Shown piece after piece: positions 1,792-58,590 of a DNA stretch of 64,000 nucleotides (position 1 is the stretch's first letter; each line of letters opens with the position of its first letter). The notes beneath the pieces are model-generated. The model saw only the letters and a program-made list of their open reading frames with translations, was not told the DNA's origin and searched no databases. The stretch lies in UHGV virus genome UHGV-2031204; one strand, written 5' to 3'. This DNA comes from a virus. The position numbers and the translations under genes were made by a program.

Positions 1792-1900
1792 TGCGTGCTC
1801 CTAATAGGCTCTGTAAAACGGTTCATAGGATCGGGTAATAGTCCAACCCTGCCTTACTAAAAAATACACTCTGTGCCCTTCCTGTGCGCACTATACTCGA

Positions 1901-1930
1901 ATAATTTTTGTATAGATATTATCTTAATGA
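1901..1930 (+). promoter_or_regulatory. conserved promoter-like motif, copy 1 (TAGATATTATCTTaATGA)
   Basis: AT-rich stretch plus TAGATATTATCTT core, about 45 nt upstream of the ATG at 1958; one of 7 similar copies in the window. Confidence 0.45.
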
Positions 1931-8584: not shown

Positions 8585-9646
8585 TTAATTTTCTAATGCC
8601 TGATATAATGGTAAAATTAACTCGTGTCGATAGTAATTTCTAGCCGACCGTGTAAGTTTTTCCAATATCTTCGCATCTTCGAATCTGGCTATACGCACCA
8701 TTAAATTGGATTTGTATTTGCTCATACTCGAGTTGTCGAACTGTAAGCAGAACAACGCCCAATACCAGTTCACGATGTTTCGATGCCAACTACCCTGAAT
8801 GGTTGAGCCTGGGTCTTTAAAAAGGATGCGGTCTACCGCAGTGGTAGGGTGTGCCGGATCATCAAAGAACTGTGGAATGTGTGCCATGACCACACCAGGT
8901 AAAGGTTTACCTGCACGAAGTGCTTTACACACTTGCGTTGCGTGTTTAATTGAAAGTTCACGTAAAGGCGGTGTAGGGACAACACGAAGTGGTGTTTCGG
9001 GTTCGACTTCTTTACCTGTTGCGACAGCGCGATGAATATTTAAAAATGCGATATTCATGTAGCTGGGTAGCATACGGTAAATGATGTGTCGCTGCGCGTA
9101 AACTACACGGTTAATCGGTTCGGATTGCGTTCGGTAATATTGTTCTGCAAGAACGTATTGCCATAGCAGTGCAACCAGATTAATTTCAATAATACTGATG
9201 CCACGGGGTTTGCCGTTCCCGAGACTCCAGTTAAGATTCGTGTACTCGTGATAAAGATAAACTGCAGGTGTGTAGTCACGAAAAGACAGTTCAGGATCAA
9301 TAGGACGTGCGACGAGTGAAATAATCTCATCTTGCCCTTCGATAAAGATCCCATTGAAAACTTGACCATACTCCCCCACAGAAGTTAGGTGTAGTGCATT
9401 ACCGATATCGGAAAGTTTGCGTCGACATGCCCACTCGATCTCTTCGTAGCTGGGTTCACCCGCATATCCGATAGCCGCTAAGATTTTGAGTACCAGATGG
9501 CCTGAAACAACACGGGTTTGAATGGACTCTAAATAGTTGCGAATGCGCTGATTATTATTTTTTACGGCACTGACCAATTGTATAGCGGAAGGGTCTTCGA
9601 ATTTACCCTTTATGGCTGCTTGGTTTAACTCGGCTTGACTGAACAT
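8585..9646 (-). CDS. hypothetical protein (353 aa)
   Basis: Minus-strand ORF with AAGGAG upstream of its ATG; divergent from the 9855 gene. No motif recognised. Confidence 0.55.
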   Translation of the reverse strand: MFSQAELNQAAIKGKFEDPSAIQLVSAVKNNNQRIRNYLESIQTRVVSGHLVLKILAAIGYAGEPSYEEIEWACRRKLSDIGNALHLTSVGEYGQVFNGIFIEGQDEIISLVARPIDPELSFRDYTPAVYLYHEYTNLNWSLGNGKPRGISIIEINLVALLWQYVLAEQYYRTQSEPINRVVYAQRHIIYRMLPSYMNIAFLNIHRAVATGKEVEPETPLRVVPTPPLRELSIKHATQVCKALRAGKPLPGVVMAHIPQFFDDPAHPTTAVDRILFKDPGSTIQGSWHRNIVNWYWALFCLQFDNSSMSKYKSNLMVRIARFEDAKILEKLTRSARNYYRHELILPLYQALEN

Positions 9647-9700
9647 GACTTACTCCTTGGGGTTACACATAGGAAACGGTCACAGTCTCACTCACATTGA

Positions 9701-9731
9701 AAAATATCTGAGAAAGATATTATCTATGTGA
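9701..9731 (+). promoter_or_regulatory. conserved promoter-like motif, copy 2 (AAGATATTATCTATGTGA)
   Basis: One of two tandem copies, 80 bp apart, upstream of the strongly codon-optimised gene at 9855. Confidence 0.5.
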
Positions 9732-9780
9732 TGGTTCGGTAGTTAATCATTTTAAGCTATGTGTGTTTTACGTGTATTCT

Positions 9781-9811
9781 AAAATATCTTAGCTAGATAT
9801 TATCTACGTGA
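9781..9811 (+). promoter_or_regulatory. conserved promoter-like motif, copy 3 (TAGATATTATCTACGTGA)
   Basis: Core ends about 45 nt upstream of the ATG at 9855. Confidence 0.5.
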
Positions 9812-9854: not shown

Positions 9855-11702
9855 ATGGCTAAAGAGTTTATTGACAATCAAAACGACGTTGTGACTGGTG
9901 CTGCTGGTTCCGCTGCAGATCCAATTCCGTCTTTCGGTGGCGCGGGAGCTGCTACTGTGGATAATACCAATGCGGCCAACGCTTTTGGTGGGATGTCTAA
10001 AAACATCTCTACTTTCGATAAAGCTTTCGGATACATGTCTTTCGTGTCCACTGCTTCTCAGTTCACCAGCCTGATTGAGAAGATGGCGGAGAAGAATACA
10101 TACCTGCGTAACTTCCGTTGGGGTGTTATTGACGGCATCAACTCTGAAATGGGTTCTGCTGCATACGTGGCTGGTCCGTCTGGCGATAACCATAACGAAT
10201 GGCTCTACGGCATCCTGTTCTTTGAACATGGCCAGTCCATCCGTTTCTACGAAATCAACGGTAAAGAAAACTACTACACCCTGGCGCAGCTGTTCAGCCA
10301 AGAAGGTGTGATGAACAACATCACTAACCAGATTGCAACTCAGCACAACCTGCCAAGCGTACAGTTCATGGTAATGAACTGCGTACCGGAACTGGGTAAA
10401 ACCATGAACGAAGAATGGGCTAACCAGCTCATGGGCCAGATTGCACTGGGTATCTTCGGTCGTCATTCCGGCTACCTGGGCTACCTGAAAATGACCCGTT
10501 CTGATCGCTTCACCGCGCAAGTCAGCGTAGTTGAAGAAGGTTCTGTAACTGATGTTAACGGTTCTGCACAACGTGCTGACCTGATGGTTGTGGTTGACCA
10601 TACTCGCACCGGCAACAACGATAATAACCCGACGCTGTTCTCTTCTGAACGCCTCCAGAATTATCCGAGCGTTGCAGGTGTTGGTTACATCAACCTCCGC
10701 CATAAAGGTAAACCTCAGACCCTGACTAACGGTACTCAGGACCTGCGTCAGCTGGAAGCCGAAGTGGTTGTTTCCCTGATGGATTCTCAGTCCTCTGGGG
10801 CAATGGCACCTATCGAGCGTCAGCTGATTGAACTGGCCGCGTTCGCACAAATCGCCACTATCGGTGGCTGGCGTGAACGTTTCATGCAGTCGCTGAACAA
10901 AACCGATCGCCGCTTCTCCCGCGTTCTGGAGTATGTAGAATGGGGCAGCGAAAAACCTGACCTGAGCAAAATCGACGGTAACCGTGAAGTTATCGAGAAA
11001 TGCCTGGACACCTTCGCTAACCCGACTGCGGCCCTGGTGGTGAACCATCGTGCAGGTAACGGTATCGGTGGTCTGTCTACTCTCCTGAGCGAAATCGGGA
11101 TGGGTAACACCAACGCACTGTACACCCTGTTCAATATCCTGGATAACATGGCCAGCAACGGCGCGACTAAGTTCAGCACTCGCTTCAAAGCACTGCTGGG
11201 CAATGTCACCAACTTCGAGTGCAAACACGTTGTTATTGCCGGTTGCCCGACCATCTCTGGCCAGTATTTCAGCAACAGCCAGAAACGCAGCTTCCAGGAT
11301 ATGGACTTGGTTTCCGCTCTGACTAAAGTGGGTGATAACCAACGCGATGCGATCGACTACATCAGTGCACAGTCCTACTCTCACCGCTATCTGAATGCGC
11401 GTGACCAGCGTCTGTACCTGCTGAAAATGGCTGCGTCCATGTTCGGTAGCAAACAGCCGCAGGTAACGGGTGAAGCGTCTGACCTGGCGATCAATCCGCT
11501 GTTTGGTAAAGCACTGGTGGAATACATTACTGAAAACTGCAACTTCCAGGTGAATGGTGTTACCGCAGCGAACAGCCTCACTCACTCTGTGTTTGTTAAC
11601 ACGGGTAATGAGAACTTCGCGCTGTCTGGTAGCGGTCCTAACGCATTTGGTAGCGATTTCGGTATGTCCTTCGCTGCAACTGACTGGCGTCCGACTTTCT
11701 AA
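9855..11702 (+). CDS. putative phage-nucleus shell protein (chimallin-like); alternatively another very abundant protein
   Basis: 615 aa with AAGGA upstream; strong bias to high-expression codons (CTG, CGT, GGT, AAC); Gly/Ala-rich N-terminal segment. Sits directly upstream of the RNAP beta-prime N gene, as phiKZ gp54/gp55 does (recalled, not searched). Size matches known chimallins (about 600-700 aa). Confidence 0.6.
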   Translation: MAKEFIDNQNDVVTGAAGSAADPIPSFGGAGAATVDNTNAANAFGGMSKNISTFDKAFGYMSFVSTASQFTSLIEKMAEKNTYLRNFRWGVIDGINSEMGSAAYVAGPSGDNHNEWLYGILFFEHGQSIRFYEINGKENYYTLAQLFSQEGVMNNITNQIATQHNLPSVQFMVMNCVPELGKTMNEEWANQLMGQIALGIFGRHSGYLGYLKMTRSDRFTAQVSVVEEGSVTDVNGSAQRADLMVVVDHTRTGNNDNNPTLFSSERLQNYPSVAGVGYINLRHKGKPQTLTNGTQDLRQLEAEVVVSLMDSQSSGAMAPIERQLIELAAFAQIATIGGWRERFMQSLNKTDRRFSRVLEYVEWGSEKPDLSKIDGNREVIEKCLDTFANPTAALVVNHRAGNGIGGLSTLLSEIGMGNTNALYTLFNILDNMASNGATKFSTRFKALLGNVTNFECKHVVIAGCPTISGQYFSNSQKRSFQDMDLVSALTKVGDNQRDAIDYISAQSYSHRYLNARDQRLYLLKMAASMFGSKQPQVTGEASDLAINPLFGKALVEYITENCNFQVNGVTAANSLTHSVFVNTGNENFALSGSGPNAFGSDFGMSFAATDWRPTF

Positions 11703-11731
11703 TAAGTTGGTAAGTAGTAAGCAGTAGTTGA

Positions 11732-11772
11732 GGGACAGGGGAAAACCCCCTGTCCCTTCCCTCTCTTTTTTT
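11732..11772 (+). terminator. rho-independent terminator
   Basis: Stem GGGACAGGGG / CCCCTGTCCC with loop aaaa, then a T-rich run. Confidence 0.65.
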
Positions 11773-11786: not shown

Positions 11787-13394
11787 GTGGAACATAAACT
11801 AGAATATTACGGGATTTCGGGGCGACTAATTAGTCACGACAAGATGTTACGTGACTGTATACAAGAAGCGGAGGAAAAAGGCTACAAACCACCGATTATT
11901 ATCAATGACGTTGCTGCAACGATGGATACCATCGAAGCGTCGGAGATGATTAACCAAATACTCCAAAACCGAATCGTTGATGAAACACTCAACTCGGCTC
12001 CTATTTGCAGTCTGACCTGCGAATCACCTATTACCCATCGTTATAATCTTGGGCTACGTTGCCCACATTGCGGACATGTTGTTTCTGAACATCGGATTAC
12101 GTCCGATGTCTGGTTACGCGCCCCCGATGAGATGGGTAACTTTATCAATCCACGTTTTTGGTCTCTCTTTAATGCCTTCTTTGGCTCTAAGCTGAAAAAA
12201 TTTAATCGTAACAAAGTGACGGTAGAGCGCGGGTCTGATTTACTGCTGTGGCTAATCGATCCGTACTACCATCCAGAAAAGGACGAAGGAACACGTGCTC
12301 GCGTGGTGAAAAGAATACTCGGCGAACATGGCTTCGAACGGGGAATTCGAAACTTTATCGACCACCATCGAACCGTCTTTAATATCCTTACGTCCCCGGA
12401 AGCTTGGAAGGAGATTTATCCGCCAACGAAAAATAACCGTTATGAGAGTGAGCGCGTACGCTTAGAATGGCGTGAGTTCTTTCAGGAACAATCGTTCTCA
12501 TTCTTTCCAAGACACCTTCCGATTATTTCATCAAAACTGATCGTTACGGAGGAACGTCGACAAGGTATTTTTATCGATCCGGTTTATACCAGCGCTATCG
12601 ACGCAGTAAAAAATGTGGCGTTGTTGTACACGAATGCACGTCGTATCGAACCACGATTTATTATTCGTCGCGCAATCAAAGCGAATCGACAGCTTGCGTA
12701 TTTCTATATTGACCATCGTCAGGAAGTGATGGAAGGTAAACCTGGGTTCTATCGGGCAAAACTCGGGTCAACACACGTACCGTGGGGCGGACGTGTGACT
12801 ATCTCTCCTATCTCTGAACCTCACGATGCGTTGAAAGTTATTGCGCCTTGGCGTTGGTTGGTTCCGTTGGCGAGTGTTCACATCGAGAACAAGTTAGGTC
12901 GTCGTGATTATACACCTCGACAATGTGAGCGCATTATTGCATTTGCGGCAATGCAGTATGTACCGCTGGTACATGAAATTATTAATGAGTTGATTAAAGA
13001 ATCCCCCGGCGGATTCGGCTTAATGTTGGAAGTTCTGCGTAACCCAACATTGGTTCAACTTTCTATTCAGACATTGTTCATCTCAGCGGTACTGACAGAT
13101 GTAACACAATGTTCTCTGCGTATTTCTGATCGTGTCATCAAAGCGCCTAACGCTGATTTCGATGGCGACCAGTTACAATGCAGATTGGCAATCGACCAGA
13201 TTGAAATGGAACTGGGCATGGCTTATCGCCCAGACAACGGGTTTATGTCAAGCACGAATGTGGACGAGGTTTCGAGTTGTATGATTCTCCATAACGAGAA
13301 TATCAGCAACATAAACAGTTTCTTCCAGGATACTGAAGAGGACTTGGAAGCCGGTATCGCGCTTGACTCTGAATTATTAAAATTGGCGGGGTAA
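11787..13394 (+). CDS. multisubunit RNA polymerase beta-prime-like subunit, N-terminal fragment
   Basis: 535 aa; contains NADFDGDQ (the beta-prime catalytic Mg-binding motif) and an N-terminal C-x-x-C ... CPHC zinc-finger-like cluster; GTG start after GAGGA. Confidence 0.8.
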   Translation: MEHKLEYYGISGRLISHDKMLRDCIQEAEEKGYKPPIIINDVAATMDTIEASEMINQILQNRIVDETLNSAPICSLTCESPITHRYNLGLRCPHCGHVVSEHRITSDVWLRAPDEMGNFINPRFWSLFNAFFGSKLKKFNRNKVTVERGSDLLLWLIDPYYHPEKDEGTRARVVKRILGEHGFERGIRNFIDHHRTVFNILTSPEAWKEIYPPTKNNRYESERVRLEWREFFQEQSFSFFPRHLPIISSKLIVTEERRQGIFIDPVYTSAIDAVKNVALLYTNARRIEPRFIIRRAIKANRQLAYFYIDHRQEVMEGKPGFYRAKLGSTHVPWGGRVTISPISEPHDALKVIAPWRWLVPLASVHIENKLGRRDYTPRQCERIIAFAAMQYVPLVHEIINELIKESPGGFGLMLEVLRNPTLVQLSIQTLFISAVLTDVTQCSLRISDRVIKAPNADFDGDQLQCRLAIDQIEMELGMAYRPDNGFMSSTNVDEVSSCMILHNENISNINSFFQDTEEDLEAGIALDSELLKLAG

Positions 13395-17808: not shown

Positions 17809-17836
17809 AGCCCCAGGATATCCTGGGGCTCTTTAT
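17809..17836 (+). terminator. terminator-like hairpin
   Basis: Stem AGCCCCAGGA / CCTGGGGCT with loop tat, then a weak T-tract. Confidence 0.45.
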
Positions 17837-17860
17837 CGTGTATGTGTGTAGAATACAGTC

Positions 17861-17895
17861 GAAGTTATCTGAGATAGATTTTATCTTAGTGGACG
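17861..17895 (+). promoter_or_regulatory. conserved promoter-like motif, copy 4 (TAGATTTTATCTTAGTGG)
   Basis: Lies inside the 5' end of track ORF 17838..19550, which argues for the later start at 17922. Confidence 0.45.
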
Positions 17896-17921: not shown

Positions 17922-19550
17922 ATGCGCATTGAAAAGAATCGTGACCGTTTAGTGATAAAGTACGGCGAAAAAGAGGTCGCGTTTAATGGTTTCCGAAATG
18001 GACGTAAAGACGTGAATGTGCCAGACGTACGCGATAGTTTCGGACAGATCGTAACGCACGATAAAATTATGTTCATGGAAATCGAGCGTTATTGGTCAAC
18101 TTTAACACCCGAAGAGAAAAGCGAACTGTTTTCAGTTTACGAAGAATTAGAGTTGTTAGCTAATGAACCCCCAGAAGTTATTCGTGAACACGTCCCCACG
18201 CTCGTCGCGAGAATTGCTAAATTTCATCACGCAGATAGATTCCGCCAGCTTTATCCACACGGTTCGGTGTGGATTCCTCAAAACGTCCACGAAACGTACG
18301 AAGAGATGTCGTCGAATTATCCAAAAGAGATGACGTATATCGTACAAGATTATTACGAATTGGTGATTTTGTCTTTGATGACAAAACCGTTTATTCCCGT
18401 ATTCTTGATTTTGGACGCTTTTCCTGCAACACGTGCTTCTGTTGAGTCGAAGCGCAAAAGTGTTTATAACCTGACCTACTGCATGGAACTGTTGTCCGAT
18501 ACCGAGATTGCTACACTGCCAGCCATTACAAAGTTGCGTGAGTTTTTAGTGTCGGTGATTTCGAAAGTTCAGGACGGGGGGAGTAAAGGACCCAATACTG
18601 CAAACCTTACCGTCCTGGCATCTATCTGTGGCTACGGTACGGATATGGTAGAGGAATACATCATAGCGTTCGCTGTTATCCGATTAATTGCGATGAAGTT
18701 AATCGGTGCCGAACTACCACCAGGTACGATGGTTGAAAACAACATCGTGGCGGGGATGTATTTCAATATTCGACAAGAAATTGAAACGGGCTTCGCGGGA
18801 AAAATTTCCGGTCAAAACGTGATGCTAAAAGCGAATCCTGAGAAAATCATGTTCAACGGCGAGAAGGGGAAAACTTCGTCGATTGACCTGGTTCAAGCTC
18901 GGACTAAAGCACCAATGAAGGAATTCGTTCGTACTCAAGAATTCTTTAATGACTATCGTCGTGCGGTGCGTGCTTTGAATCTCGATATTGCTCCCGCTGA
19001 TGTGAAAGTGTTGATAGATTCCATCAACATTAACCATCAATATCCTTTCTACGAACTCTACGAATGGTTGGTGGCGGCAGTGATGCACCGATTTGCAGAT
19101 CGTCGTACATACAAGGAAATCGACGCAGAAGCGTTTAAGAATGCGATGGGTATATCCCAAGCCGTTTACATCTATTACGGAATGGCTGAGATTGCACAGT
19201 TGTTAAGTTGTGAAATGATCCGGGCACCGCTAAATGGCGGGTATCCCATCGAGCCAATCGATAATGAGATTAAAATAAAAACGGATAGATATTATCCACA
19301 AGCATACCGTAAGCATCGTAATACTTACGAACAATCAACATTGAAGGATTCTCTCAGCTTGTTGGTTCGTGAACATATCGCGCCGTTCAACTTCAATCTC
19401 AGGGCAACACCGGAAGCAGCCAGAATGTTACGGTGTGGGACAGTGATGTTGGACTATTCACCTCATCCGCGACTTCAGAACATGTTAGCAGAATTTCTGT
19501 TAATTCAAAACAGAAAGAAATGCGAAGAAGTAGCATGGTTTAATCAATAA
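17922..19550 (+). CDS. hypothetical protein (542 aa)
   Basis: Track ORF trimmed to the ATG at 17922 (GGAG 8 nt upstream), placing the promoter motif and terminator outside the gene. Confidence 0.55.
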   Translation: MRIEKNRDRLVIKYGEKEVAFNGFRNGRKDVNVPDVRDSFGQIVTHDKIMFMEIERYWSTLTPEEKSELFSVYEELELLANEPPEVIREHVPTLVARIAKFHHADRFRQLYPHGSVWIPQNVHETYEEMSSNYPKEMTYIVQDYYELVILSLMTKPFIPVFLILDAFPATRASVESKRKSVYNLTYCMELLSDTEIATLPAITKLREFLVSVISKVQDGGSKGPNTANLTVLASICGYGTDMVEEYIIAFAVIRLIAMKLIGAELPPGTMVENNIVAGMYFNIRQEIETGFAGKISGQNVMLKANPEKIMFNGEKGKTSSIDLVQARTKAPMKEFVRTQEFFNDYRRAVRALNLDIAPADVKVLIDSININHQYPFYELYEWLVAAVMHRFADRRTYKEIDAEAFKNAMGISQAVYIYYGMAEIAQLLSCEMIRAPLNGGYPIEPIDNEIKIKTDRYYPQAYRKHRNTYEQSTLKDSLSLLVREHIAPFNFNLRATPEAARMLRCGTVMLDYSPHPRLQNMLAEFLLIQNRKKCEEVAWFNQ

Positions 19551-19580: not shown

Positions 19581-21287
19581 ATGGCAATGAAACTTTTGAA
19601 ACTACAAATGTATCCAGTGTACGAAATCCCAGAGCAGATTCGTCGTCGCATTGGGTTCTTTGAATCGCAGCACGCTTTGGATGAGTTAGTGGATGTGGTT
19701 GCAGAACACGGTGATAAAGCAACAGGTTCTCGGGCTTATCAAGAAGCCTTGGGGCAGATTGTGGGTTTCGACAACACCCCAACTGGCATTGAACGTCCAT
19801 TCATTAACGTGAGTGATAACGAATCGCAACCAATCCATTTTGCGTATAATTCTCGCGATACTGGTGTGTATAACTTCGTGGCGATTATTGTTTCGAACTC
19901 GTTAAATGACACACGGACTCAAGAAACACGTTATGTTGTTTCCGGGTATACGTCCCAGGCAGAACGATCCATGTTTAATCACCTGCCGGATGACATGGTT
20001 CTGTATATCAACGAAATATACGGGTTACAATGTACGTATATCACCGATGCGTTTGGTGGACGTCGTATCAACCCGGATTCCTTCCGTTTGATAGACAACT
20101 ATGTGTTGTCCAAGACATTAACCGCAGACAGTTATGTAGAGCACACCATTGACGTTATTTCTACCGCGAAAGCAGCTGATATGGTGCGTAAAGTGGTGAA
20201 AGCTGGTGAGCAGATTGAGCTGGATAACAACACTGTTATCTCTGCTAATTGCCAGCGTGCACCACAGTTGATGTCTAGTCAATTAACACGACCAGAATCT
20301 TTCGTGACAGCTATCTCCAATTCCTTCATTAATACCATGGGGATTGAAACGGAGTTGAGTGCAGTGGACAGTTTCTTCGCAGGAGATCATTCTCTTGGGG
20401 TAGAATCTGAACTTAGCCAGATCGGGGTGATGCGTAATTTCAATAGTTACGAATTGGTGAAGGCTTTTAGAACCGCCATATCCAACGCCACGTCCGATAT
20501 GACTAGCGGTTGGAACGTTGCGAACCGTGCAGCATTCAAACTGTGCGACCTGCGTAACGCGGTGATTAATCCCGAAGACGTAGATGCTGCAATTGCGCAC
20601 TCACTGGCTGTCGCAGCCCGTCGCGGTTTTGGTGAAATTGAACGCACCGATGATTGGGTAGGACGTAACAACTATTCTACTCAGGGTTCGTTGGTGGCAT
20701 TTGATTTAGCCATGTTACTGGGGCCTGTGGTCACTCGTAACCTTATCGGCGAAGTGACTTTCTTCTACGATAACCGTATGGCGGATATTGCAACACCTCC
20801 TCTGCTGCAAGTGTCAAAACACAACGTTGGGGCATTAACTGAAGACGGATTACCGGATGTGTTAGCACGTCGCTTCTTAAGTGACTTACAAGGCGTATTC
20901 TTGCAAGTGACTAAACACAACCGTATTCGTTGTAAGATGACCGTAACGTGTATCGTTGGGGTGGTTTCACGTATTGAAATCGAAATCGATGGTGAGCTGC
21001 CTGAGTATTATACTCATGCGTCGTTCATGAAAGCACGTCTGCATTGTGGTACAACGACTGACCTTCAGTACACGAACCAGTTAGCTGCAGAAACAGCGCA
21101 GCTGATGAACAAAGTGGAAGAAGGGTACCAAGAATTCAACCGTGGTCAGAACCGTTCGAATATCCTGTCGAATATTCCAACTGCCCCTGTGTCTGCACCT
21201 ACGAGCCTGGGTAGCTTCGGTAGCTTTGGTGGTGGCGATATGTCAACCTCTGCGCCAGTGTCTGGCTTTGGTGCATTCGGCGAGTAA
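19581..21287 (+). CDS. hypothetical protein with FG-motif C-terminal tail
   Basis: 568 aa; AAGGAG upstream; C-terminus ...SLGSFGSFGGGDMSTSAPVSGFGAFGE. Confidence 0.6.
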   Translation: MAMKLLKLQMYPVYEIPEQIRRRIGFFESQHALDELVDVVAEHGDKATGSRAYQEALGQIVGFDNTPTGIERPFINVSDNESQPIHFAYNSRDTGVYNFVAIIVSNSLNDTRTQETRYVVSGYTSQAERSMFNHLPDDMVLYINEIYGLQCTYITDAFGGRRINPDSFRLIDNYVLSKTLTADSYVEHTIDVISTAKAADMVRKVVKAGEQIELDNNTVISANCQRAPQLMSSQLTRPESFVTAISNSFINTMGIETELSAVDSFFAGDHSLGVESELSQIGVMRNFNSYELVKAFRTAISNATSDMTSGWNVANRAAFKLCDLRNAVINPEDVDAAIAHSLAVAARRGFGEIERTDDWVGRNNYSTQGSLVAFDLAMLLGPVVTRNLIGEVTFFYDNRMADIATPPLLQVSKHNVGALTEDGLPDVLARRFLSDLQGVFLQVTKHNRIRCKMTVTCIVGVVSRIEIEIDGELPEYYTHASFMKARLHCGTTTDLQYTNQLAAETAQLMNKVEEGYQEFNRGQNRSNILSNIPTAPVSAPTSLGSFGSFGGGDMSTSAPVSGFGAFGE

Positions 21288-23050: not shown

Positions 23051-23060
23051 AATCGTTCCT

Positions 23061-23093
23061 AAAATAAGTGAGATAGATATTATCCTACTGAAT
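23061..23093 (+). promoter_or_regulatory. conserved promoter-like motif, copy 5 (TAGATATTATCCTACTGA)
   Basis: About 35 nt upstream of the RNAP beta-like gene at 23114. Confidence 0.45.
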
Positions 23094-23113: not shown

Positions 23114-25351
23114 ATGAAAACGCCAGTAGAGCTAATGAGCAGTGTGGCTGACCGTGAGATTAATATCACCGAAGTATCAGGTGCAAGGGCATCGATGGTA
23201 GGCAACCATATGAAGTCTGCGGTCCCTATCGACAATCCTGAACCATCGCCACATTTTACAGGGGCAGATATAAACTACCACGATTTTCTGTTCAATGACG
23301 TTGTAGAAGATCCCGGTAGCATCTGCCACTATATGACCAAAGACGGTCGTCAGCGCCGCGCGACGTTTACACGTTATGGTCGTCGTGGGGATTCTAAAGC
23401 GTTGGAACATGCTATCTTCTTCCGCCGTGCAGAAATGAAGGGCGGTAAAACCATGATAGATGTGCTGGAGATTAACTTCTATACTAACCACGACAACATC
23501 TTCTCATCTGAGAAACGTGAGTCGATGAAACTGCGTAGTATTTTACGTGGCGAAACCGATCAGTTGGAAAAGGATGAAATCCTTACAACGATGTCGTGTA
23601 TGGTGGAAGGCGAGTACGCCGATAGCGTCGTGTTACCAACCGTTACGATTTCGCATCCTGATATCATCGAGGATTCTTACACCATCTCTGAGTACGCCGC
23701 CCAAAAACTCCACGGTTATGGTTTGAAAATCGTTGAAAAGACGCTACGTGAAGACGAGTTTTTACTGGATACTTACGGTTATATCGATCCGAACGGTAAT
23801 CGCGTCCCACGGTATTTCCCGGATGTGGGGGAGGCTATTCGTGACGATGGGTTGGTCATTGCATCGCGTCGTTTCGATGAGCTTTACGGTGCAATTGATG
23901 CGTCGCTTGGGGAAACCCAACACGTCTCTCCGTTCTTTGATAGTTGCGAATATGTGGATGCCGATCCCGTCCATTATAAAGCACGTCTTGCAGGCGACAA
24001 AGAACTGATGGAACGTAGCGGTACACGTATCGTCGATATCCAGGTGTGGCGTGATGAAACGTCTTGCGCGAATGGTGCTAACAATATTTCTTGTACCGAA
24101 GAGAACAAACGAGAACTGGATAAATACGCATTAGCATTGAAAGACTATTACAATGCCATCGTACGATTCTATTTCTCAATGTCCCGTGACAAAAATATTA
24201 TCTGGTCGCCGAAAGCGTGCGTGTTGTTGGAAAAAGCGTTCGCTTCTGAAACATACGAGGTCTATCACGAGTTTCGTGAAGAGATACGCGTGGTGATTGA
24301 TGAAGCAATTCGTCGTGGTGAATACGGTAAAGAAAATGTCAGTCAGCAGATTCTTTCTAAGTTGACCTCGCCAGTACAACGTGGACTCAGCGATCCCATC
24401 AACACGTATACCATTCGTATTGCTGTTCGTTATCCGATCCCGGTAACGGTGTCGTCTAAGATTACCGACCGCTCGGGTACGAAAGGGATTGTTGGGCGTG
24501 TATTGCCCGTTGAGCAGATGCCGATTAACGAATTCGGTGAACGTGTTCACGTTTTACGTTCGATGAACGCTGTAATTCGTCGCTCGACTTATGCAGCATT
24601 ATTCCACATGTATTGGTCAGCTGCGTCTGAACAGTTGAAAATGCGTCTTAAACCATTGCTGGATGAAGGACGTATCAGCGAGAGCTGGGAAATCCTGATG
24701 GATTATCTATCACGCTATAATCCAGAATGGGCCAATACACTACAGGCAACGCATCCTACGGAGGATTTACAACGCGAACTTTTCAAAGAGATTTACGATT
24801 TTACAATCCGTATTTACTTACCACATGAACTTGACGACACGCCAGTCGATATCAGTGAACGGTTGGGTGAATTTAAACCGCGTAAATCCAAACTCCTGAT
24901 TACTAATTTCGATGGTAAACAGGAATGGACAAAAAATGAGTTTTACGTAGGTGGTGTGGAAACATTACGTCTGGATAAAACAGGTCGTGAGTTTTCCAGC
25001 ATCTCGTCAATGTATCTGAATTATCTGGGTACGATAGATGCGTCTAACCAAGGCCGTGGTTCGTATCCGATAAACTATAAAACGCTAAAATGGGCTGGTC
25101 CTTCGGAAGAACGACTGTTAGCGGGTTATGGTCCAGGTAACTACGAAGAAGTTCACGACAGGGCAAATAACCCTGCGGTGCATCGTGAGATTTTAGTAGG
25201 GCTTTATCGATCTCAAACCCCGTCTAATCCGGGTCCACTGGTAGACCGGAATAAATTCCCGTTAGGGGATTCACAGATTGACAGGATGATGAAAAACATC
25301 CACAGCTGTGAAGGGTTTGAATTGGTGAAAATGAAAAGGGGCGATGAATAA
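23114..25351 (+). CDS. multisubunit RNA polymerase beta-like subunit (C-terminal region)
   Basis: 745 aa; DRSGTKGIVGRVLPVEQMP...RSMN parallels E. coli beta [20 protein letters not shown]...SRMN; AAGGAG upstream. Confidence 0.6.
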   Translation: MKTPVELMSSVADREINITEVSGARASMVGNHMKSAVPIDNPEPSPHFTGADINYHDFLFNDVVEDPGSICHYMTKDGRQRRATFTRYGRRGDSKALEHAIFFRRAEMKGGKTMIDVLEINFYTNHDNIFSSEKRESMKLRSILRGETDQLEKDEILTTMSCMVEGEYADSVVLPTVTISHPDIIEDSYTISEYAAQKLHGYGLKIVEKTLREDEFLLDTYGYIDPNGNRVPRYFPDVGEAIRDDGLVIASRRFDELYGAIDASLGETQHVSPFFDSCEYVDADPVHYKARLAGDKELMERSGTRIVDIQVWRDETSCANGANNISCTEENKRELDKYALALKDYYNAIVRFYFSMSRDKNIIWSPKACVLLEKAFASETYEVYHEFREEIRVVIDEAIRRGEYGKENVSQQILSKLTSPVQRGLSDPINTYTIRIAVRYPIPVTVSSKITDRSGTKGIVGRVLPVEQMPINEFGERVHVLRSMNAVIRRSTYAALFHMYWSAASEQLKMRLKPLLDEGRISESWEILMDYLSRYNPEWANTLQATHPTEDLQRELFKEIYDFTIRIYLPHELDDTPVDISERLGEFKPRKSKLLITNFDGKQEWTKNEFYVGGVETLRLDKTGREFSSISSMYLNYLGTIDASNQGRGSYPINYKTLKWAGPSEERLLAGYGPGNYEEVHDRANNPAVHREILVGLYRSQTPSNPGPLVDRNKFPLGDSQIDRMMKNIHSCEGFELVKMKRGDE

Positions 25352-27450
25352 TGAAGGGCACTCCAGTTCACGTGCGTGATCTGTGTAAACTGAACTCGGA
25401 TCAGGTGTGGCTATTGCGCGGCAGATATGAAGTGACGTTCGATGACGGGATAACCTTAAACATGTCAGGACGCCACATTAAAATCAGTTGGCCTTATTGG
25501 GGGCTAACACGATTTTATCCGCAGATCCCAATCAGTTCGCAAATGGCGTATAAACATGGCGACACCGCTACAGATGACGCACATCTGAAGTTTATGTCAT
25601 TGGCAGCTGTGGCAGCACGTAAAGCGGGTGTGGATTTAGCAGATACCCGCTATTTATTGCAGCAGCACGTCTATGCGGATGCGTTTAACTTATCGGTGAA
25701 AAATCTGTTGTCGTATTGTGTCACGATTGACTACGATACGATGATGGAAATTTACCAACACCGAAATTTTACGCAGATTCATCAGTGGGCACAAATGTAT
25801 CCTACTGGGTACGACGAAGAAGGTCGGGATATGATCGAAGAAGCGTATCTTCTTATCGAAGATATCTTCAAAGACCCACAACTTCGTTTAAACCCTGTGG
25901 TGATGTCGGTCTTGGATAAAACCATCAAAATGAACCAGGTTCTCCAGGCGTATATACGCGGGAAAACGTCAGAGATTGATTCTCGCGTTTATTCTAACCA
26001 GGTATGGGAAGGTTTCTTTACGGGCCTACATTCTGTAATTAGCCGTCTGAAAGAAGCGGGAGCGACGTCACGTTCTCACCTGTATAATACCGATAAAATC
26101 GCCGATGCGGAATATGCGTCACGTAAGCTACAGTTAGCAGCCAACGTGTTAATGTATTTCGAATACGACGATTGCGGTACGCATCATGTTCACCGCCACA
26201 CGTTTACAGAAAGTAAACTGGAGCGTAAGAAGTACGATGCGATGGTAGGGATGCGTTATCGTTTTGAAGGCGTGGGAGGCCCGTGGCTACGATTCGAGAA
26301 AGGGGAGTTTGAGAAAGTCTTAGGTAAACCTATTGAGTTTCGTACCGCGATGTGCTGTAAGGGGATGGCACGTCAAAGCATTTGTGCAACGTGCATGGGT
26401 GATTTGATTTATAACCTTTCGCCGGGAACGTCCCCAGGTCACTTGGCTTCAACCTCGATATCTGAAAAGGGTACGCAGGGGATTCTCTCAACGAAGCACT
26501 TGGACTTCTTACGTTATCTGCTGAATCTGGTACTGACTCCGAGAATGCGGGATTATCTTGGGGAGTATAAACACAACTCCGTAAAAGGGTTGAGTTTACG
26601 GGAGAAACCGCAGTACGGTAATTGGGATGAATACCAACTCGTTATTTCTGATGAAGTCTATTCTGAAATCAGCCAAATCGCGTATCATGACGATTTGGAA
26701 GTGATCGACGAAACGGCATTGCCGGAGATTAACGAACTGACCTTTTTGCGGTTGGATGAAGCTGGGAATGTGTTGGCTGAAGATCCCATTGACGTCCGTA
26801 TGGGGGTTTGTGGTAACTTCTCGAAAGCCTTCTTGCATTTCTTCCTGAAACAGCGCGATAACATTACCTTCCCGTCGAAGAAGCTGGTACGGATTCCCCT
26901 GAAAGGATGGAAACCGAGTTGGCCGATACTAATTTATACGAATCGGTCTGAATCTATGGCGGAGTTTGTAGCAGGGTTAGAATTGAAACTTCGTTCGGTT
27001 GCGTCTGATAAATCGGATACTTTCGAACAGTTCTCTGATGACTCAATGCGTTTGAGCAAGAAGTCGGGTAAGGTAAAACCAACGACTCTGGTTCAGATGC
27101 GCGGTGCTACGGAGAAACAATGTACGCACGCGTTATTTGATGTGTTTAAATATATCCAACGTAAGCTCGGTGGTATTCCGATGACACACATCGCGATTAT
27201 GCTGGCGATATCACGCGTTGAATCACCGACCAATCCTTTCCCGGCGGTTGGGTTTGATAGTGAAGATGCTGATGTGATGGATGGCAAACGTTTCGAGGAT
27301 CACAATACGTTGATTGCGATGCGTTCAGCTGTACCGATGTTGTTATTCGAAGGCCAACAGAAAAACCTGGACAACGTGCGTTTCTACACGTCGCGTAAAC
27401 GTCCGGCGTCGTTATACGACAATACGGTGGCCGCGACTATCATTGAGTAA
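25351..27450 (+). CDS. possible RNA polymerase beta-prime-like subunit, C-terminal part
   Basis: 699 aa; TAATG overlap with the beta-like gene; Cys cluster CCKG...CATC and GTQGILSTKHLD weakly resembling the beta-prime bridge-helix motif SGYLTRRLVD. Weak evidence. Confidence 0.4.
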   Translation: MKGTPVHVRDLCKLNSDQVWLLRGRYEVTFDDGITLNMSGRHIKISWPYWGLTRFYPQIPISSQMAYKHGDTATDDAHLKFMSLAAVAARKAGVDLADTRYLLQQHVYADAFNLSVKNLLSYCVTIDYDTMMEIYQHRNFTQIHQWAQMYPTGYDEEGRDMIEEAYLLIEDIFKDPQLRLNPVVMSVLDKTIKMNQVLQAYIRGKTSEIDSRVYSNQVWEGFFTGLHSVISRLKEAGATSRSHLYNTDKIADAEYASRKLQLAANVLMYFEYDDCGTHHVHRHTFTESKLERKKYDAMVGMRYRFEGVGGPWLRFEKGEFEKVLGKPIEFRTAMCCKGMARQSICATCMGDLIYNLSPGTSPGHLASTSISEKGTQGILSTKHLDFLRYLLNLVLTPRMRDYLGEYKHNSVKGLSLREKPQYGNWDEYQLVISDEVYSEISQIAYHDDLEVIDETALPEINELTFLRLDEAGNVLAEDPIDVRMGVCGNFSKAFLHFFLKQRDNITFPSKKLVRIPLKGWKPSWPILIYTNRSESMAEFVAGLELKLRSVASDKSDTFEQFSDDSMRLSKKSGKVKPTTLVQMRGATEKQCTHALFDVFKYIQRKLGGIPMTHIAIMLAISRVESPTNPFPAVGFDSEDADVMDGKRFEDHNTLIAMRSAVPMLLFEGQQKNLDNVRFYTSRKRPASLYDNTVAATIIE

Positions 27451-32569: not shown

Positions 32570-33424
32570 ATGATTGACATTTATACCGATTACGCCGCCG
32601 TTCTTACCGTCAATCGTGCGGAAGAACGTGCTGCGCCTTTCCTGGACTTAGTAACGCTGTGCATGGATTACGGTTACGATGTTGCGTTAAGCGATGTGTA
32701 TTGGCAACCGTCGTCTGATCCTGCCGACGAAACAGTAAGACTGGAAGGGATTATTGTAAAATGCGCCGTGGCGTTAGGCAACCGTTTAGGCGTTGCTTTA
32801 AACCCACAAGAAGTTTTCCGTAAACCGAAAGAGACCGTACGTATTCTAGATGGTATTACGTCTAAATTCGAAGAGTTCGAAGACACTGATACGTTATACG
32901 GTCTCGTGATGTCTGGAGAAACGCCAGAGTTTATCCTGGAAAGTATCTGCCGTTACGTATACGGTGATGACAATATCCATTTTGAAGATTTGGTCATTCG
33001 TGTTTCACCCCGTGTAATGACGGTGATGCGCAACTATCTTTCAGCTATGGTTGTGGATGAACAGCTTGCTGTAGGTAACGATGCGCGTCTGACGCGTATT
33101 GCAGAATACTTGCGTCTTTATCCGCAAAACCCTTCTGCGTTCGTATTCCTAAACCTACCTGAAGATCCCGATTTGACGGTTGTCCAACAATCGTTAGTGT
33201 TTGACGTCGAAGATTACAGCGAAACAGAATTACTCGAGATGTATACGGTAGGGCTTTCGATTATCGATAACGATGACTTCGATGACGCGTATGCCGATCT
33301 TTCGACGAACTTAGAGAAACTTAATAATGATGGGTTACAACCCATTACTGTTTTACAACCTGCATTAAAAAGCCTACGGCTGATTTATCAGGTTGAGGAG
33401 GCAGAGCACGATGACGAGGTTTGA
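32570..33424 (+). CDS. hypothetical protein (about 284 aa)
   Basis: Track ORF trimmed to the ATG at 32570 (AAAGG upstream). Confidence 0.55.
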   Translation: MIDIYTDYAAVLTVNRAEERAAPFLDLVTLCMDYGYDVALSDVYWQPSSDPADETVRLEGIIVKCAVALGNRLGVALNPQEVFRKPKETVRILDGITSKFEEFEDTDTLYGLVMSGETPEFILESICRYVYGDDNIHFEDLVIRVSPRVMTVMRNYLSAMVVDEQLAVGNDARLTRIAEYLRLYPQNPSAFVFLNLPEDPDLTVVQQSLVFDVEDYSETELLEMYTVGLSIIDNDDFDDAYADLSTNLEKLNNDGLQPITVLQPALKSLRLIYQVEEAEHDDEV

Positions 33425-34712
33425 GTTCTTAGTAGCGGCATGTAAAGCAGAGGCATGGCGACGTCTGGTCTGGCGCATTGCTATTTTTAACATGTCGGTA
33501 TTTCCAACAGGGCGCGAAGAACCCGAAGCGTTTGATATAACGTATATCGACGGCTTACCGCATTATTACGCTGTAGAAGACGGCAAGGGCAGTTGGGAAC
33601 CGATTACTGACGGCGTAAAGGACCAGGAGCTGTTTGTCCCTGAAGAACAGTTCGAGCTACGCCCTGACGATTATCCCGGTTTAGACGGTCCTATTCCCAC
33701 GACAGTAGGACGATACGTTTTTAACTGGATTGTTATCTGGTATGCATTTGGTACACGCTTACCCTATCTGGCGATTTCACAAAACCCGTTGGAATATCGC
33801 AAAGAGATGCATCGGCGTTGTTTAGACCATGAAACCGATGAGCCAGAAAACGAAGGTGCAATTCGACCGAGTATGATTGAGCGCTTTGTAAGCGGTTTAC
33901 ACGAACTCGCGCCACTTACGTCAGGGATTGCACCAACCGGTACGTTACGAAGTCTCACAGTGCATCCTGATGCGTATAAAATCCGCGATGCGTTACTGTT
34001 GAAGCACAAAGACGAGTTAGACGATCCTGCCGTTATCGTTAAGATTGAAAAAGCGTTGGATGAGTTAGACAAAGAATGGTTGTCGGGTGACCAATCTATT
34101 GAGTTTTATAACTCGCCGAAATCGCGGATGCGTCGACGTAAATTAATGCTGATGTACGGTATCGAATCGTCTTTTCAGGAAGGGGGTCATTACACGCTCA
34201 TTCCGAACGCGTTAGTTGAAGTTGATAAGGCGGGGATGGAAAACCTGGTTGCGAAATTCAACTCTATCCGTGAAGGTTCATTCTCTCGTGGTGCGGAAAC
34301 AGCGAAAGGGGGTGAGCAGGTACGTATTATCCAGATGATTTTCCAGAACCACCGAATCGTCCCTGGTGACTGCGGAACGAAACTAACGTACCCGGTTGTG
34401 ATTACCGAAGATAACGTAAAACGTTACGTTGGGATGAATGCGATGGTTAATGGTAAACTGACACCATTGACTGAGGAATATTTAAAACAACAGTTAGGTA
34501 AGGTGGTGCGGTTACGCCGACCCATCTTATGTCAGTATGGCCACATCGACACCTGCACAGCGTGTTCGTCTGCGAATAAAGGGGAAGAACCTCGCGCAAT
34601 CGCTGCGGATATATCCTCGGCGTTCTCTAACGTTATGTCCGTGGCAATGGCCGCGATGCATGGTAAAGAGACAGTGGTACACGAATTTAATCCATCGATC
34701 CACATTACGTAA
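33411..34712 (+). CDS. hypothetical protein (about 433 aa)
   Basis: Track ORF trimmed to the ATG at 33411 (GGAGG upstream); C-terminal Cys cluster CQYGHIDTCTACSS. Confidence 0.55.
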   Translation: MTRFEFLVAACKAEAWRRLVWRIAIFNMSVFPTGREEPEAFDITYIDGLPHYYAVEDGKGSWEPITDGVKDQELFVPEEQFELRPDDYPGLDGPIPTTVGRYVFNWIVIWYAFGTRLPYLAISQNPLEYRKEMHRRCLDHETDEPENEGAIRPSMIERFVSGLHELAPLTSGIAPTGTLRSLTVHPDAYKIRDALLLKHKDELDDPAVIVKIEKALDELDKEWLSGDQSIEFYNSPKSRMRRRKLMLMYGIESSFQEGGHYTLIPNALVEVDKAGMENLVAKFNSIREGSFSRGAETAKGGEQVRIIQMIFQNHRIVPGDCGTKLTYPVVITEDNVKRYVGMNAMVNGKLTPLTEEYLKQQLGKVVRLRRPILCQYGHIDTCTACSSANKGEEPRAIAADISSAFSNVMSVAMAAMHGKETVVHEFNPSIHIT

Positions 34713-50231: not shown

Positions 50232-50249
50232 TCCCTGATTGTTTAGTAA

Positions 50250-50295: not shown

Positions 50296-50300
50296 GATTA

Positions 50301-50336
50301 AAATAATTTTCAGATATATATTACCTAGGTGAGATT
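50301..50336 (+). promoter_or_regulatory. conserved promoter-like motif, copy 6 (TTCAGATATATATTACCTAGGTGAGA)
   Basis: 26-nt stretch identical to the copy at 58563..58588; about 50 nt upstream of the ATG at 50385. Confidence 0.5.
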
Positions 50337-51026: not shown

Positions 51027-51032
51027 GATAAA

Positions 51033-58401: not shown

Positions 58402-58560
58402 AAACTTCCCGTTACCTCTATGGGTAACGGGAATACCTTTTATTTATTCCTAAACGACACGCAGAAGTCATTTAACCGTTAAGACGACTAATTACCCTTT
58501 AAAAAGAAAATTGCGTCAGAATGCGTTTTAGAGCGTTCTAGAGGGTATATGGATTCAAAA

Positions 58561-58590
58561 AGATTTCAGATATATATTACCTAGGTGAGA
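58561..58590 (+). promoter_or_regulatory. conserved promoter-like motif, copy 7 (TTCAGATATATATTACCTAGGTGAGA)
   Basis: Identical over 26 nt to the copy at 50311..50336; about 50 nt upstream of the small gene at 58637. Confidence 0.5.

What the first reader, a model, noticed from the sequence alone, without database searches (positions are those of the whole stretch)
9701..9811. Seven copies of a conserved promoter-like motif TAGATATTATCTAnGTGA
Copies at 1901, 9701, 9781, 17861, 23061, 50301 and 58561 all face + strand genes, 40-75 nt upstream of the start codon, often just after a terminator. They front the chimallin-like gene (two copies), the RNAP beta/beta-prime pair and the small lipoprotein-like gene. 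The core contains a GATA-T-TATC palindrome and does not look like a sigma-70 promoter. It may be the early promoter read by a virion-packaged phage RNAP; I recall phiKZ early promoters being AT-rich with a TATATTAC-like core but cannot verify this.
Basis: partly seen in the sequence, partly recalled or inferred. Interest (0 to 1): 0.6.

Follow-up and report, generated by a model that had tools for sequence, protein, structure and literature searches.

The report
Early promoters of a jumbo phage
The repeated motif is real and is this jumbo phage's version of the known phiKZ-type early promoter, which most likely lets the RNA polymerase carried in the virus particle switch on the first genes after infection; it is a clean example of a known element, not a new one.

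Summary
Seven copies of TAGATATTATCTAnGTGA lie on the + strand (8 pattern hits against 0.07 expected by chance). All sit in non-coding spacers 22-52 nt upstream of a start codon; the distal chimallin copy is 123 nt upstream. The conserved element is about 36 nt long: ATTCAAAnAnATTTnAGATAGATATTATCTAnGTGA.

The window comes from a new SPN3US/Asesino-like nucleus-forming jumbo phage. The motif fronts the chimallin gene (two tandem copies), the non-virion RNA polymerase subunits (phiKZ gp71-73/gp74 homologues) and several small genes. It does not front the virion-protein genes or the virion RNA polymerase gene in the window.

SPN3US carries about 24 copies, all on the + strand, and six of its sites match window sites. 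The window, SPN3US and phiKZ sites align without gaps, with ATATTA and a downstream G invariant. phiKZ early promoters (core TATATTAC) are experimentally mapped. A nearly identical consensus is already published as the predicted early promoter of phages N1M2 and OBP.

Two minor extras:
- There are two discrete promoter flavours, each conserved at matching sites in SPN3US.
- The tandem chimallin promoters are conserved in five genera.

Verdict: new member of a known kind, low-to-moderate interest.

The parts
1895..1930 (+). Early promoter P1, palindromic flavour (core TAGATATTATCTTAATGA at 1913-1930). Predicted start of transcription at G1929.
   Evidence: Orthologous to SPN3US site 7393, 31/36 identical.
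9696..9731 (+). Distal chimallin early promoter (core AAGATATTATCTATGTGA at 9714-9731). Predicted start at G9730.
   Evidence: The block is conserved in five genera.
9776..9811 (+). Predicted start at G9810, giving a 5' untranslated region of about 45 nt.
9855..11702 (+). Chimallin (nuclear shell protein, ChmA) gene, driven by the two tandem promoters.
   Evidence: 52.7% amino-acid identity to Asesino gp39. Asesino gp039 was shown to form the nuclear shell (PMC11724907).
11787..13394 (+). Non-virion RNA polymerase beta'-N subunit (phiKZ gp55 homologue). It lies downstream of chimallin, behind the terminator-like hairpin at 11730-11758.
   Evidence: 7OGP chain A, E = 1.5e-38.
17857..17892 (+). 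Early promoter (core TAGATTTTATCTTAGTGG at 17875-17892). It follows the terminator-like hairpin at 17809-17830 and drives genes 17922-19550, 19581-21287 and 21310-22689.
   Evidence: Orthologous to SPN3US site 23813.
19268..19303 (+). Possible eighth, degenerate copy (ATAGATATTATCC, no GTGA) inside the 3' end of ORF 17922-19550, 295 nt before gene 19581.
   Evidence: 17 bits. Orthologous to the strong SPN3US intragenic site 25229 (37.7 bits).
23056..23091 (+). Early promoter of the non-virion RNA polymerase operon (core TAGATATTATCCTACTGA at 23074-23091). Predicted start at G23090.
   Evidence: Orthologous to SPN3US site 28972.
23114..27450 (+). Non-virion RNA polymerase beta (23114-25351, phiKZ gp71-73-like) and beta' C-terminal part (25351-27450, phiKZ gp74-like).
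   Evidence: 7OGP chains C and D, E = 4e-29 and 9e-32.
50297..50332 (+). Early promoter, phiKZ-like flavour (core TATATATTACCTAGGTGA at 50315-50332). It forms a single-gene cassette: hairpin 50249-50279, promoter, gene 50385-51026, hairpin 51032-51053.
   Evidence: Orthologous to SPN3US site 56297, 32/36 identical.
58553..58588 (+). Early promoter, phiKZ-like flavour (core at 58571-58588). It drives the 47-residue lipoprotein-like gene 58637-58780, which is followed by the hairpin at 58788-58803.
   Evidence: Orthologous to SPN3US site 65416.
33411..34712 (+). Virion RNA polymerase beta' middle subunit (SPN3US gp42 orthologue), part of the enzyme proposed to read the motif. No motif copy lies directly in front of it.
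   Evidence: 74% identity. SPN3US gp42 is a virion RNA polymerase subunit (PMC5694885). Searches find no motif there.

Best explanation
The seven sites are phiKZ-type early promoters of a new SPN3US/Asesino-like member of the Chimalliviridae.

Proposed mechanism (inferred from phiKZ):
1. The multisubunit RNA polymerase packaged in the virion is injected with the DNA.
2. It recognises a roughly 36-bp directional element with three blocks. These are an A-rich TTCAAA-like block near -30, a TTTnAGAT block near -20, and an extended AT-rich core A(G/T)ATATTA(T/C)CT near -10.
3. It starts RNA synthesis about 7 nt after the core, at the conserved G (or the following A) of GTGA.

These promoters sit wherever + strand transcription has to restart, either after a terminator or after a divergent - strand gene. 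They launch the genes needed first: chimallin (from two tandem promoters), the non-virion RNA polymerase subunits, and small takeover-type proteins.

What is shown here: the motif, its placement and orientation, its conservation at matching sites in relatives, its ungapped alignment with phiKZ TATATTAC sites, and the identity of the downstream genes.

What is inferred: the start position, the early timing, and recognition by the virion polymerase.
For: Motif statistics and exclusivity:
- 8 hits against 0.07 expected.
- The seven sites score 42-51 bits; the next best position scores 11 bits.
- All sites are non-coding, on the + strand, and followed by a Shine-Dalgarno sequence and an ATG.

Downstream genes:
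- Chimallin (PMC11724907).
- Non-virion RNA polymerase subunits, homologous to chains of PDB entry 7OGP.
- No motif in front of the virion-protein block or the virion RNA polymerase gp42 orthologue.

SPN3US:
- About 24 + strand copies and no genuine - strand copy. The copies found at up to 3 mismatches lie in spacers upstream of + strand genes, apart from one copy inside the 3' end of the gene at 23886-25493 (site 25229), and they avoid the virion-structural blocks. Six match window sites.
- Between window and SPN3US the motif is 81% identical, against 62% for the rest of the spacers.
- Both tandem chimallin promoters are conserved blocks in five genera.

phiKZ:
- The ungapped alignment with phiKZ sites has A8, A24, T25, T27, A29 and G37 invariant in 34 of 34 sequences.
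- With G37 taken as +1, the blocks fall at -30, -20 and -10, as described for phiKZ and 201phi2-1 early promoters (PMC11512511, PMC8244752). The predicted 5' untranslated regions are 24-54 nt, against the 31-40 nt typical of phiKZ.

Literature:
- Early motifs are found in every jumbo phage that encodes its own RNA polymerases, and were validated wherever tested (PMC7598289).
- The N1M2 consensus is TBYAWWWWWTTTCARRYAKATATTATYWAAGTGWA; the phiKZ core is TATATTAC (PMC7058600).
- The SPN3US virion RNA polymerase is essential (PMC5694885).
Against: - There are no transcript data for this phage or, as far as the held literature shows, for any SPN3US-like phage. Start sites, timing and the polymerase are inferred by homology of the DNA element.
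- No jumbo-phage virion RNA polymerase had been purified as of 2017 (PMC5312081), and I found no later report of one being shown to initiate at these motifs in vitro.
- In 201phi2-1, not all non-virion RNA polymerase genes have an early promoter nearby (PMC11512511), so the logic 'polymerase genes must be early' is not absolute.
- A strong terminator-like hairpin (11730-11758) lies between chimallin and the gp55-like gene, so how that gene is transcribed is unclear.
- The strand bias within the window alone is weak evidence, because most genes are on the + strand.
Confidence: 0.85

Rival explanations
1. The sites are host sigma-70 promoters, used by the bacterial RNA polymerase immediately after DNA entry.
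For: The core contains TATTAT, a 5-of-6 match to the -10 hexamer TATAAT. A conserved G follows 7 nt downstream and a TTCAAA-like block lies upstream.
Against: - None of the seven sites passes the sigma-70 scan.
- The TTCAAA block is only 15 nt from TATTAT, which is too close for a -35 element, and there is no TTGACA-like hexamer at 16-18 nt (my reading).
- In 2 of 7 window sites, 8 of the 20 aligned SPN3US sites and all phiKZ sites, the critical last T of the -10 hexamer is C (TATTAC).
- Conservation extends across positions that sigma-70 does not read (CAGATAGA, CTAnGTGA).
- phiKZ-type infection does not depend on host RNA polymerase (PMC7598289, PMC13282480).
Confidence: 0.04
2. The palindrome AGATATTATCT is an operator for a dimeric DNA-binding protein (a repressor or activator), not itself a promoter.
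For: The 11-bp perfect palindrome is present in 3 of 7 window sites and 10 of the 20 aligned SPN3US sites. SPN3US encodes an annotated helix-turn-helix protein behind one of the non-palindromic copies.
Against: - The conserved element is about 36 bp long and asymmetric.
- All copies point the same way, toward a nearby start codon.
- The palindrome is absent from the T/C flavour and from all phiKZ sites, which otherwise align column for column.
- The reverse strand of each site scores 20 bits or less.
Confidence: 0.05
3. They are middle-class promoters, read by the non-virion RNA polymerase or by a modified form of it.
For: phiKZ gp54 has a middle promoter as well as an early one (PMC8244752), and chimallin here has two promoter copies. 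Which polymerase serves the middle class is unresolved (PMC10612078).
Against: - Both chimallin copies carry the same early-type motif.
- The motif matches the phiKZ early core TATATTAC. It does not match the phiKZ middle motif (TACT near -22 after an A-run) or the late motif (TATG) (PMC8244752, PMC7598289).
- The motif fronts the non-virion RNA polymerase genes themselves.
Confidence: 0.05
4. They are hairpin-form promoters of the N4 type, recognised as extruded DNA stem-loops by a virion polymerase.
For: Like N4, the phage injects a virion RNA polymerase, and the core is palindromic in some copies.
Against: - Folded as single-stranded DNA, the seven sites give 0 to -3.8 kcal/mol, with a different structure at each site.
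- 5 of 7 fold no better than shuffled sequence.
- The central palindrome leaves only a 4-bp A/T stem.
- The N4 enzyme is a single-subunit polymerase, unrelated to the multisubunit enzyme here (PMC7598289).
Confidence: 0.01

Closest known systems
phiKZ early promoters (core TATATTAC, attributed to the virion RNA polymerase; mapped by primer extension, differential RNA-seq and ONT-cappable-seq)
   Same: - They align without gaps to the window sites. The shared features are an A-rich TTCAAA block, TTTnAGA, the ATATTA core and a downstream TGA, with six columns invariant.
- Both lie in spacers pointing at the downstream gene.
- Both front the nuclear-shell gene.
- Two window sites contain TATATTAC exactly.
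   Different: - Five of the seven window sites carry AGATATTATCT (G and T in place of T and C), which creates an 11-bp palindrome absent from phiKZ.
- The initiation region is CTAnGTGA here, against tAAnTTGa in phiKZ.
- Chimallin here has two tandem early-type copies. phiKZ gp54 has one early and one middle promoter (PMC8244752).
[quoted passage not shown]
   Same: The consensus is almost identical position for position. This includes the G/T choice before ATATTAT and the GTG downstream. Both are found at roughly 20-30 sites per genome at the heads of operons.
   Different: They come from a different phage lineage and are also only predicted. The TATTAC variant is not part of the N1M2 consensus.
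SPN3US-group phages (SPN3US, Asesino, ChrisDB, Wellington)
   Same: The same motif occurs at matching positions, in the same two flavours, with the same tandem pair upstream of chimallin.
   Different: The window phage is only about 52% identical in chimallin. Some sites differ in strength: the copy inside a gene is strong in SPN3US (37.7 bits) and degenerate here (17 bits). I could not confirm whether the SPN3US motif has been published (Lavysh 2016 is not held).
AR9/PBS1 early promoters
   Same: Same functional class: an AT-rich motif near -10 attributed to a virion multisubunit RNA polymerase (PMC5312081, PMC7598289).
   Different: The AR9 genome contains uracil and the phage forms no nucleus. 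The review says early motifs differ from phage to phage (PMC7598289); I did not compare the AR9 sequence itself.
Bacterial sigma-70 promoters
   Same: Overall geometry: an AT-rich hexamer about 7 nt upstream of a purine start.
   Different: There is no usable -35 element at the correct spacing, many copies have C at the last -10 position, and none is flagged by the consensus scan.

Membership tests
phiKZ-type (Chimalliviridae) early promoter | Highly conserved AT-rich core of about 10 nt (TATATTAC-like) centred near -10 | tested here: met
   ATATTA is invariant or nearly so in all 34 aligned window, SPN3US and phiKZ sites. The core definition comes from PMC7598289 and PMC7058600.
phiKZ-type (Chimalliviridae) early promoter | Further conserved blocks near -20 (T-rich, then AGA) and near -30 (A-rich) at fixed spacing | tested here: met
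   The ungapped alignment shows tTcaAA and atTTnAGAt in register in all three phages. This matches the description in PMC11512511 and PMC8244752.
phiKZ-type (Chimalliviridae) early promoter | Located in non-coding spacers at the heads of operons and oriented toward the downstream gene | tested here: met
   Seven of seven sites are non-coding and on the + strand, with an ATG 22-123 nt downstream. Each follows a terminator or a divergent gene.
phiKZ-type (Chimalliviridae) early promoter | Fronts early-class genes (nuclear shell, non-virion RNA polymerase, small unknown proteins) and not virion genes | tested here: met
   for the window. The SPN3US genome-wide map shows none in the virion-structural blocks.
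phiKZ-type (Chimalliviridae) early promoter | The phage encodes a virion-packaged multisubunit RNA polymerase | tested here: met
   Window 33411-34712 is 74% identical to SPN3US gp42, a virion RNA polymerase beta' subunit detected in virions (PMC5694885). The other four subunits would lie outside the window.
phiKZ-type (Chimalliviridae) early promoter | A primary 5' end a few nt downstream of the core, present from the first minutes and independent of host RNA polymerase and of new protein synthesis | not testable with these tools
   This needs RNA from infected cells. The start at G (core start + 16) is only predicted.
Sigma-70 promoter | -35 and -10 hexamers matching TTGACA and TATAAT at 16-18 nt spacing, with T at the last -10 position | tested here: not met
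   No site was called by the scan. The last -10 position is C in the T/C flavour.
N4-type hairpin promoter | A stable DNA hairpin conserved in all copies | tested here: not met
   Folding energies are 0 to -3.8 kcal/mol, the structures are inconsistent, and 5 of 7 are no better than shuffles.
Palindromic operator of a dimeric regulator | Two-fold symmetry conserved in all copies, with function independent of orientation | tested here: not met
   The 11-bp palindrome is intact in 3 of 7 window sites and absent from the T/C flavour and from phiKZ. All sites share one orientation. A secondary role at the palindromic subset is not excluded.

The most novel reading that the evidence does not exclude
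The two discrete flavours are functionally distinct subclasses of early promoter in SPN3US-like phages, not neutral variants.

The flavours:
- Palindromic: A-G-ATATTA-T-CT. It fronts chimallin, the non-virion RNA polymerase and other longer operons.
- phiKZ-like: A-T-ATATTA-C-CTAGGTGAG. It fronts single small genes bracketed by terminators.

The two variable positions co-vary almost perfectly (G/T 18, T/C 8, G/C 1, T/T 0). The flavour is kept at matching sites between phages whose chimallins are only about 51% identical.

Possible meanings are different strength or timing, or an extra dimeric regulator acting on the 11-bp palindrome to tune or shut off the chimallin and polymerase subset.
Probability: 0.2. 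Interest if true: 0.5.

Novelty: new member of a known kind. Interest (0 to 1): 0.25.

Why it matters
The result gives a ready annotation of the early transcription units of an undescribed nucleus-forming jumbo phage. It also shows that the early promoter architecture is shared, column for column, between Pseudomonas phage phiKZ and enterobacterial SPN3US-like phages.

How the virion RNA polymerase finds its promoters is not addressed in any paper I could read. The invariant positions (ATATTA and the G about 7 nt downstream) and the two discrete flavours are therefore useful constraints for biochemical or structural work.

The 36-bp element could also serve as a portable early-expression signal for engineering SPN3US-like phages, as has been done with the phiKZ consensus early promoter (PMC12676376).

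It does not change current understanding.

Tried and rejected
Sources I could not reach:
- Ceyssens 2014 and Lavysh 2016, the primary sources for the phiKZ and pan-jumbo early motifs, are not held.
- No supplementary start-site tables are held for the phiKZ or 201phi2-1 transcript papers. The start position therefore had to be inferred from text descriptions.
- Full-text searches for TATATTAC and GATATTATCT returned only irrelevant papers.
- I found no SPN3US transcript study.
- I found no structure or in vitro promoter study of a chimallivirus virion RNA polymerase.

Searches that gave little:
- The search for related loci with chimallin returned only the 96%-identical relative and SPN3US, whether queried alone or as a three-sequence alignment. 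I fetched Asesino, ChrisDB and Wellington by hit id instead.
- Chimallin has no hit in the Protein Data Bank by single-sequence search.
- BLASTP of chimallin against phiKZ gp54 is not significant. Its identity rests on 52.7% identity to Asesino gp39 and on gene order.
- Rfam and tRNA scans of the window found nothing.

Hypotheses tested and rejected:
- The N4-like hairpin.
- The sigma-70 promoter.
- The conserved TTCCTATGTG block on the - strand is unique in the window, so no late-promoter family could be defined from it.

Technical note:
- Two scripts failed because I assumed one file per locus; loci fetched together are stored as several records in one file.

Full report

Yes. The pattern TAGATATTATCTANGTGA with up to three mismatches occurs 8 times in the window, against 0.07 expected from dinucleotide-preserving shuffles. 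Seven hits are on the + strand, with core starts at 1913, 9714, 9794, 17875, 23074, 50315 and 58571. The eighth is the reverse-strand echo of the palindromic core at 9794.

Stacking the sites shows that conservation extends upstream, to a unit of about 36 nt. A 42-nt weight matrix scores the seven sites at 42-51 bits, and the next best position on either strand scores 11 bits. A matrix enriched with the SPN3US sites reveals one more, degenerate copy at 19286 (17 bits) inside a coding region.

All seven sites are non-coding in a window that a crude ORF map puts at about 93% coding. Each is followed by a Shine-Dalgarno sequence and an ATG 22-52 nt after the motif, or 123 nt for the distal chimallin copy.

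Similarity between copies stops at the edges of the motif. So the copies are not a duplicated segment or a mobile element.

**2. What is the window?**

It comes from a nucleus-forming jumbo phage of the SPN3US/Asesino group with no close match among deposited phage genomes.
- Nucleotide matches to deposited phages are negligible.
- The product of 9855-11702 is 52.7% identical to Asesino gp39 and about 51% identical to the SPN3US homologue.
- Asesino gp039 is the experimentally confirmed chimallin, and gp040 is a non-virion RNA polymerase subunit (PMC11724907).
- Gene order follows SPN3US.
- An IMG/VR contig of 220,786 bp is 96% identical to the window.

**3. What lies behind the motif?**

Searches of the Protein Data Bank identify three subunits of the non-virion RNA polymerase. 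All match chains of the phiKZ structure 7OGP:
- 23114-25351 is a homologue of phiKZ gp71-73.
- 25351-27450 is a homologue of phiKZ gp74.
- 11787-13394 is a homologue of phiKZ gp55.

So the motif fronts the nuclear-shell gene (twice), the operon for the polymerase that will later take over transcription, and several genes of unknown function. One of these is a 47-residue lipoprotein-like peptide.

The window also encodes an orthologue (74% identity) of SPN3US gp42, which is a virion RNA polymerase beta' subunit detected in virions (PMC5694885). That gene has no motif copy directly in front of it. Neither do the virion-protein genes at about 37-50 kb and 52.8-58.4 kb.

Every site marks a place where + strand transcription must restart:
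- Three loci follow terminator-like hairpins: 17809-17830, 50249-50279 and 58406-58433.
- Three loci follow a divergent - strand gene.

**4. Relatives**

I fetched the whole SPN3US genome. It has about 24 copies, all on the + strand. The only - strand hits are weak palindromic echoes.

The copies found at up to three mismatches lie in spacers upstream of + strand genes, apart from one copy inside the 3' end of the gene at 23886-25493 (site 25229), and they avoid the large virion-structural blocks. The three weaker copies found only by the matrix scan also sit just upstream of annotated + strand genes.

Six SPN3US sites are at matching positions to the window sites. Across these pairs the 36-nt motif is 81% identical, against 62% for the remaining spacer sequence.

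The chimallin upstream regions of the window, SPN3US, Asesino, ChrisDB and Wellington represent five genera. When aligned, both tandem promoter copies stand out as conserved blocks.

**5. Comparison with the experimentally characterised system**

In the first 50 kb of phiKZ, TATATTAC occurs seven times on the + strand and never on the - strand. Every copy lies upstream of a gene, including gp54, the nuclear-shell gene.

The 7 window, 20 SPN3US and 7 phiKZ sites align without a single gap over 48 columns. The consensus is ATTCAAAnAnATTTnAGATAGATATTATCTAnGTGA. Columns A8, A24, T25, T27, A29 and G37 are invariant, and A18, A26 and T28 are nearly so.

Two window sites contain the phiKZ core TATATTAC exactly.

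If G37 is taken as +1, the three blocks fall at about -30, -20 and -10. [quoted passage not shown] The predicted 5' untranslated regions would be 24-54 nt, against 31-40 nt typical of phiKZ (PMC8244752).

**6. What the literature says**

- The review by Sokolova et al. states that a conserved motif can be found upstream of early operons in every jumbo phage that encodes its own RNA polymerases. It was confirmed as the early promoter wherever transcripts were profiled, and it is an AT-rich sequence of about 10 nt centred near -10 (PMC7598289).
- Lewis et al. list predicted early promoter consensus sequences: N1M2 TBYAWWWWWTTTCARRYAKATATTATYWAAGTGWA (31 sites), OBP, 201phi2-1, EL and phiKZ TATATTAC (PMC7058600). 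The N1M2/OBP consensus matches the window motif almost position for position.
- phiKZ early transcription is attributed to the injected virion RNA polymerase. It is independent of host RNA polymerase and of new protein synthesis (PMC7598289, PMC13282480).
- The number of virion polymerase molecules per phiKZ virion (7-30) is similar to the number of early promoters (PMC10612078).
- The SPN3US virion polymerase is essential (PMC5694885).

**7. Rivals**

- *Host sigma-70 promoters.* None of the sites passes the consensus scan. The upstream block is only 15 nt from TATTAT. A third of the copies in this clade, and all phiKZ copies, have C at the critical last -10 position.
- *A palindromic operator.* The element is long, asymmetric and always in one orientation. 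The palindrome is missing from the T/C flavour and from phiKZ.
- *A middle-class promoter.* The motif matches the phiKZ early core rather than the middle or late motifs, and it drives the non-virion RNA polymerase genes themselves.
- *An N4-like hairpin promoter.* DNA folding rejects it.

**8. What is mildly new**

(a) The copies fall into two discrete flavours. In the 27 window and SPN3US sites, the two variable core positions co-vary as G/T 18, T/C 8, G/C 1 and T/T 0. By my own hypergeometric calculation this is about 4e-6, but it is inflated by shared ancestry.
- The T/C flavour is always followed by TAGGTGA.
- Its 23-mer is exactly conserved in 16 stretches of eight IMG/VR contigs, seven of them 150-245 kb long and one a 7-kb fragment.
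- In the window it drives single-gene cassettes bracketed by terminators.
- The flavour is kept at matching sites between the window and SPN3US.

(b) Tandem early promoters upstream of chimallin are conserved across five genera.

(c) A promoter copy inside a gene is strong in SPN3US (25229) but decayed in the window (19286).

**9. Verdict**

The element is a new member of a known kind: the phiKZ-type early promoter attributed to the virion RNA polymerase. Interest is low to moderate.

I give 0.85 confidence to the early-promoter explanation. The most novel reading still open is that the two flavours are functionally distinct subclasses, or that the palindromic subset also binds a regulator. 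I put its probability at about 0.2.

Noticed in passing
window 19268-19303 (+): A degenerate eighth copy of the motif (ATAGATATTATCC, no GTGA; 17 bits) lies inside the 3' end of ORF 17922-19550, 295 nt before gene 19581. The matching SPN3US site (25229) is a strong copy (37.7 bits) and is also inside a gene.
   Followed up: partly
window 9666-9675 (- strand, TTCCTATGTG): The ATAGGAA part of this block is invariant in five genera, and the full block is nearly so. It lies 7 nt upstream of the Shine-Dalgarno sequence of the - strand gene 8585-9646, which occupies the same position as the phiKZ gene annotated as a head structural protein. It contains TATG, the core of phiKZ late promoters, so it may be a late promoter. 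The 10-mer is unique in the window.
   Followed up: partly
window 50249-51053 and 58406-58803: The two TATATATTACCTAGGTGA promoters each drive a single small gene bracketed by terminator-like hairpins, embedded among virion-protein genes. One product (58637-58780, 47 residues) has a signal peptide and a lipobox-like VLGC. It may be an early lipoprotein, conceivably for superinfection exclusion as with T5 Llp (from my own knowledge, not tested).
   Followed up: partly
window 11730-11758 (+): A strong terminator-like hairpin (12-bp stem, 8 G-C pairs) sits between chimallin and the gp55-like non-virion RNA polymerase gene at 11787. That gene therefore needs read-through or a promoter I did not recognise.
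   Followed up: no
window 59640-60550: A gene-poor stretch with tandem modules of about 400 nt (repeats at 59792/60192 and 59844/60243) and a series of terminator-like hairpins, mostly on the - strand. No tRNA or Rfam family is detected.
   Followed up: partly
window 9706-9716 versus L023 (IMGVR_UViG_3300045988_113438): In the 96%-identical relative, the distal chimallin promoter reads TCTTAGCTAGAT, the same as the proximal copy. The window has TCTGAGAAAGAT, which is three clustered substitutions. This suggests a small gene conversion between the tandem promoter copies.
   Followed up: no
L002 22489 and 22687 (SPN3US 72489 and 72687): SPN3US has a second tandem pair of early-type promoters, 198 nt apart, just downstream of the major head protein gene and upstream of the next gene (72738-73742). 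The matching region lies beyond the end of the window.
   Followed up: no
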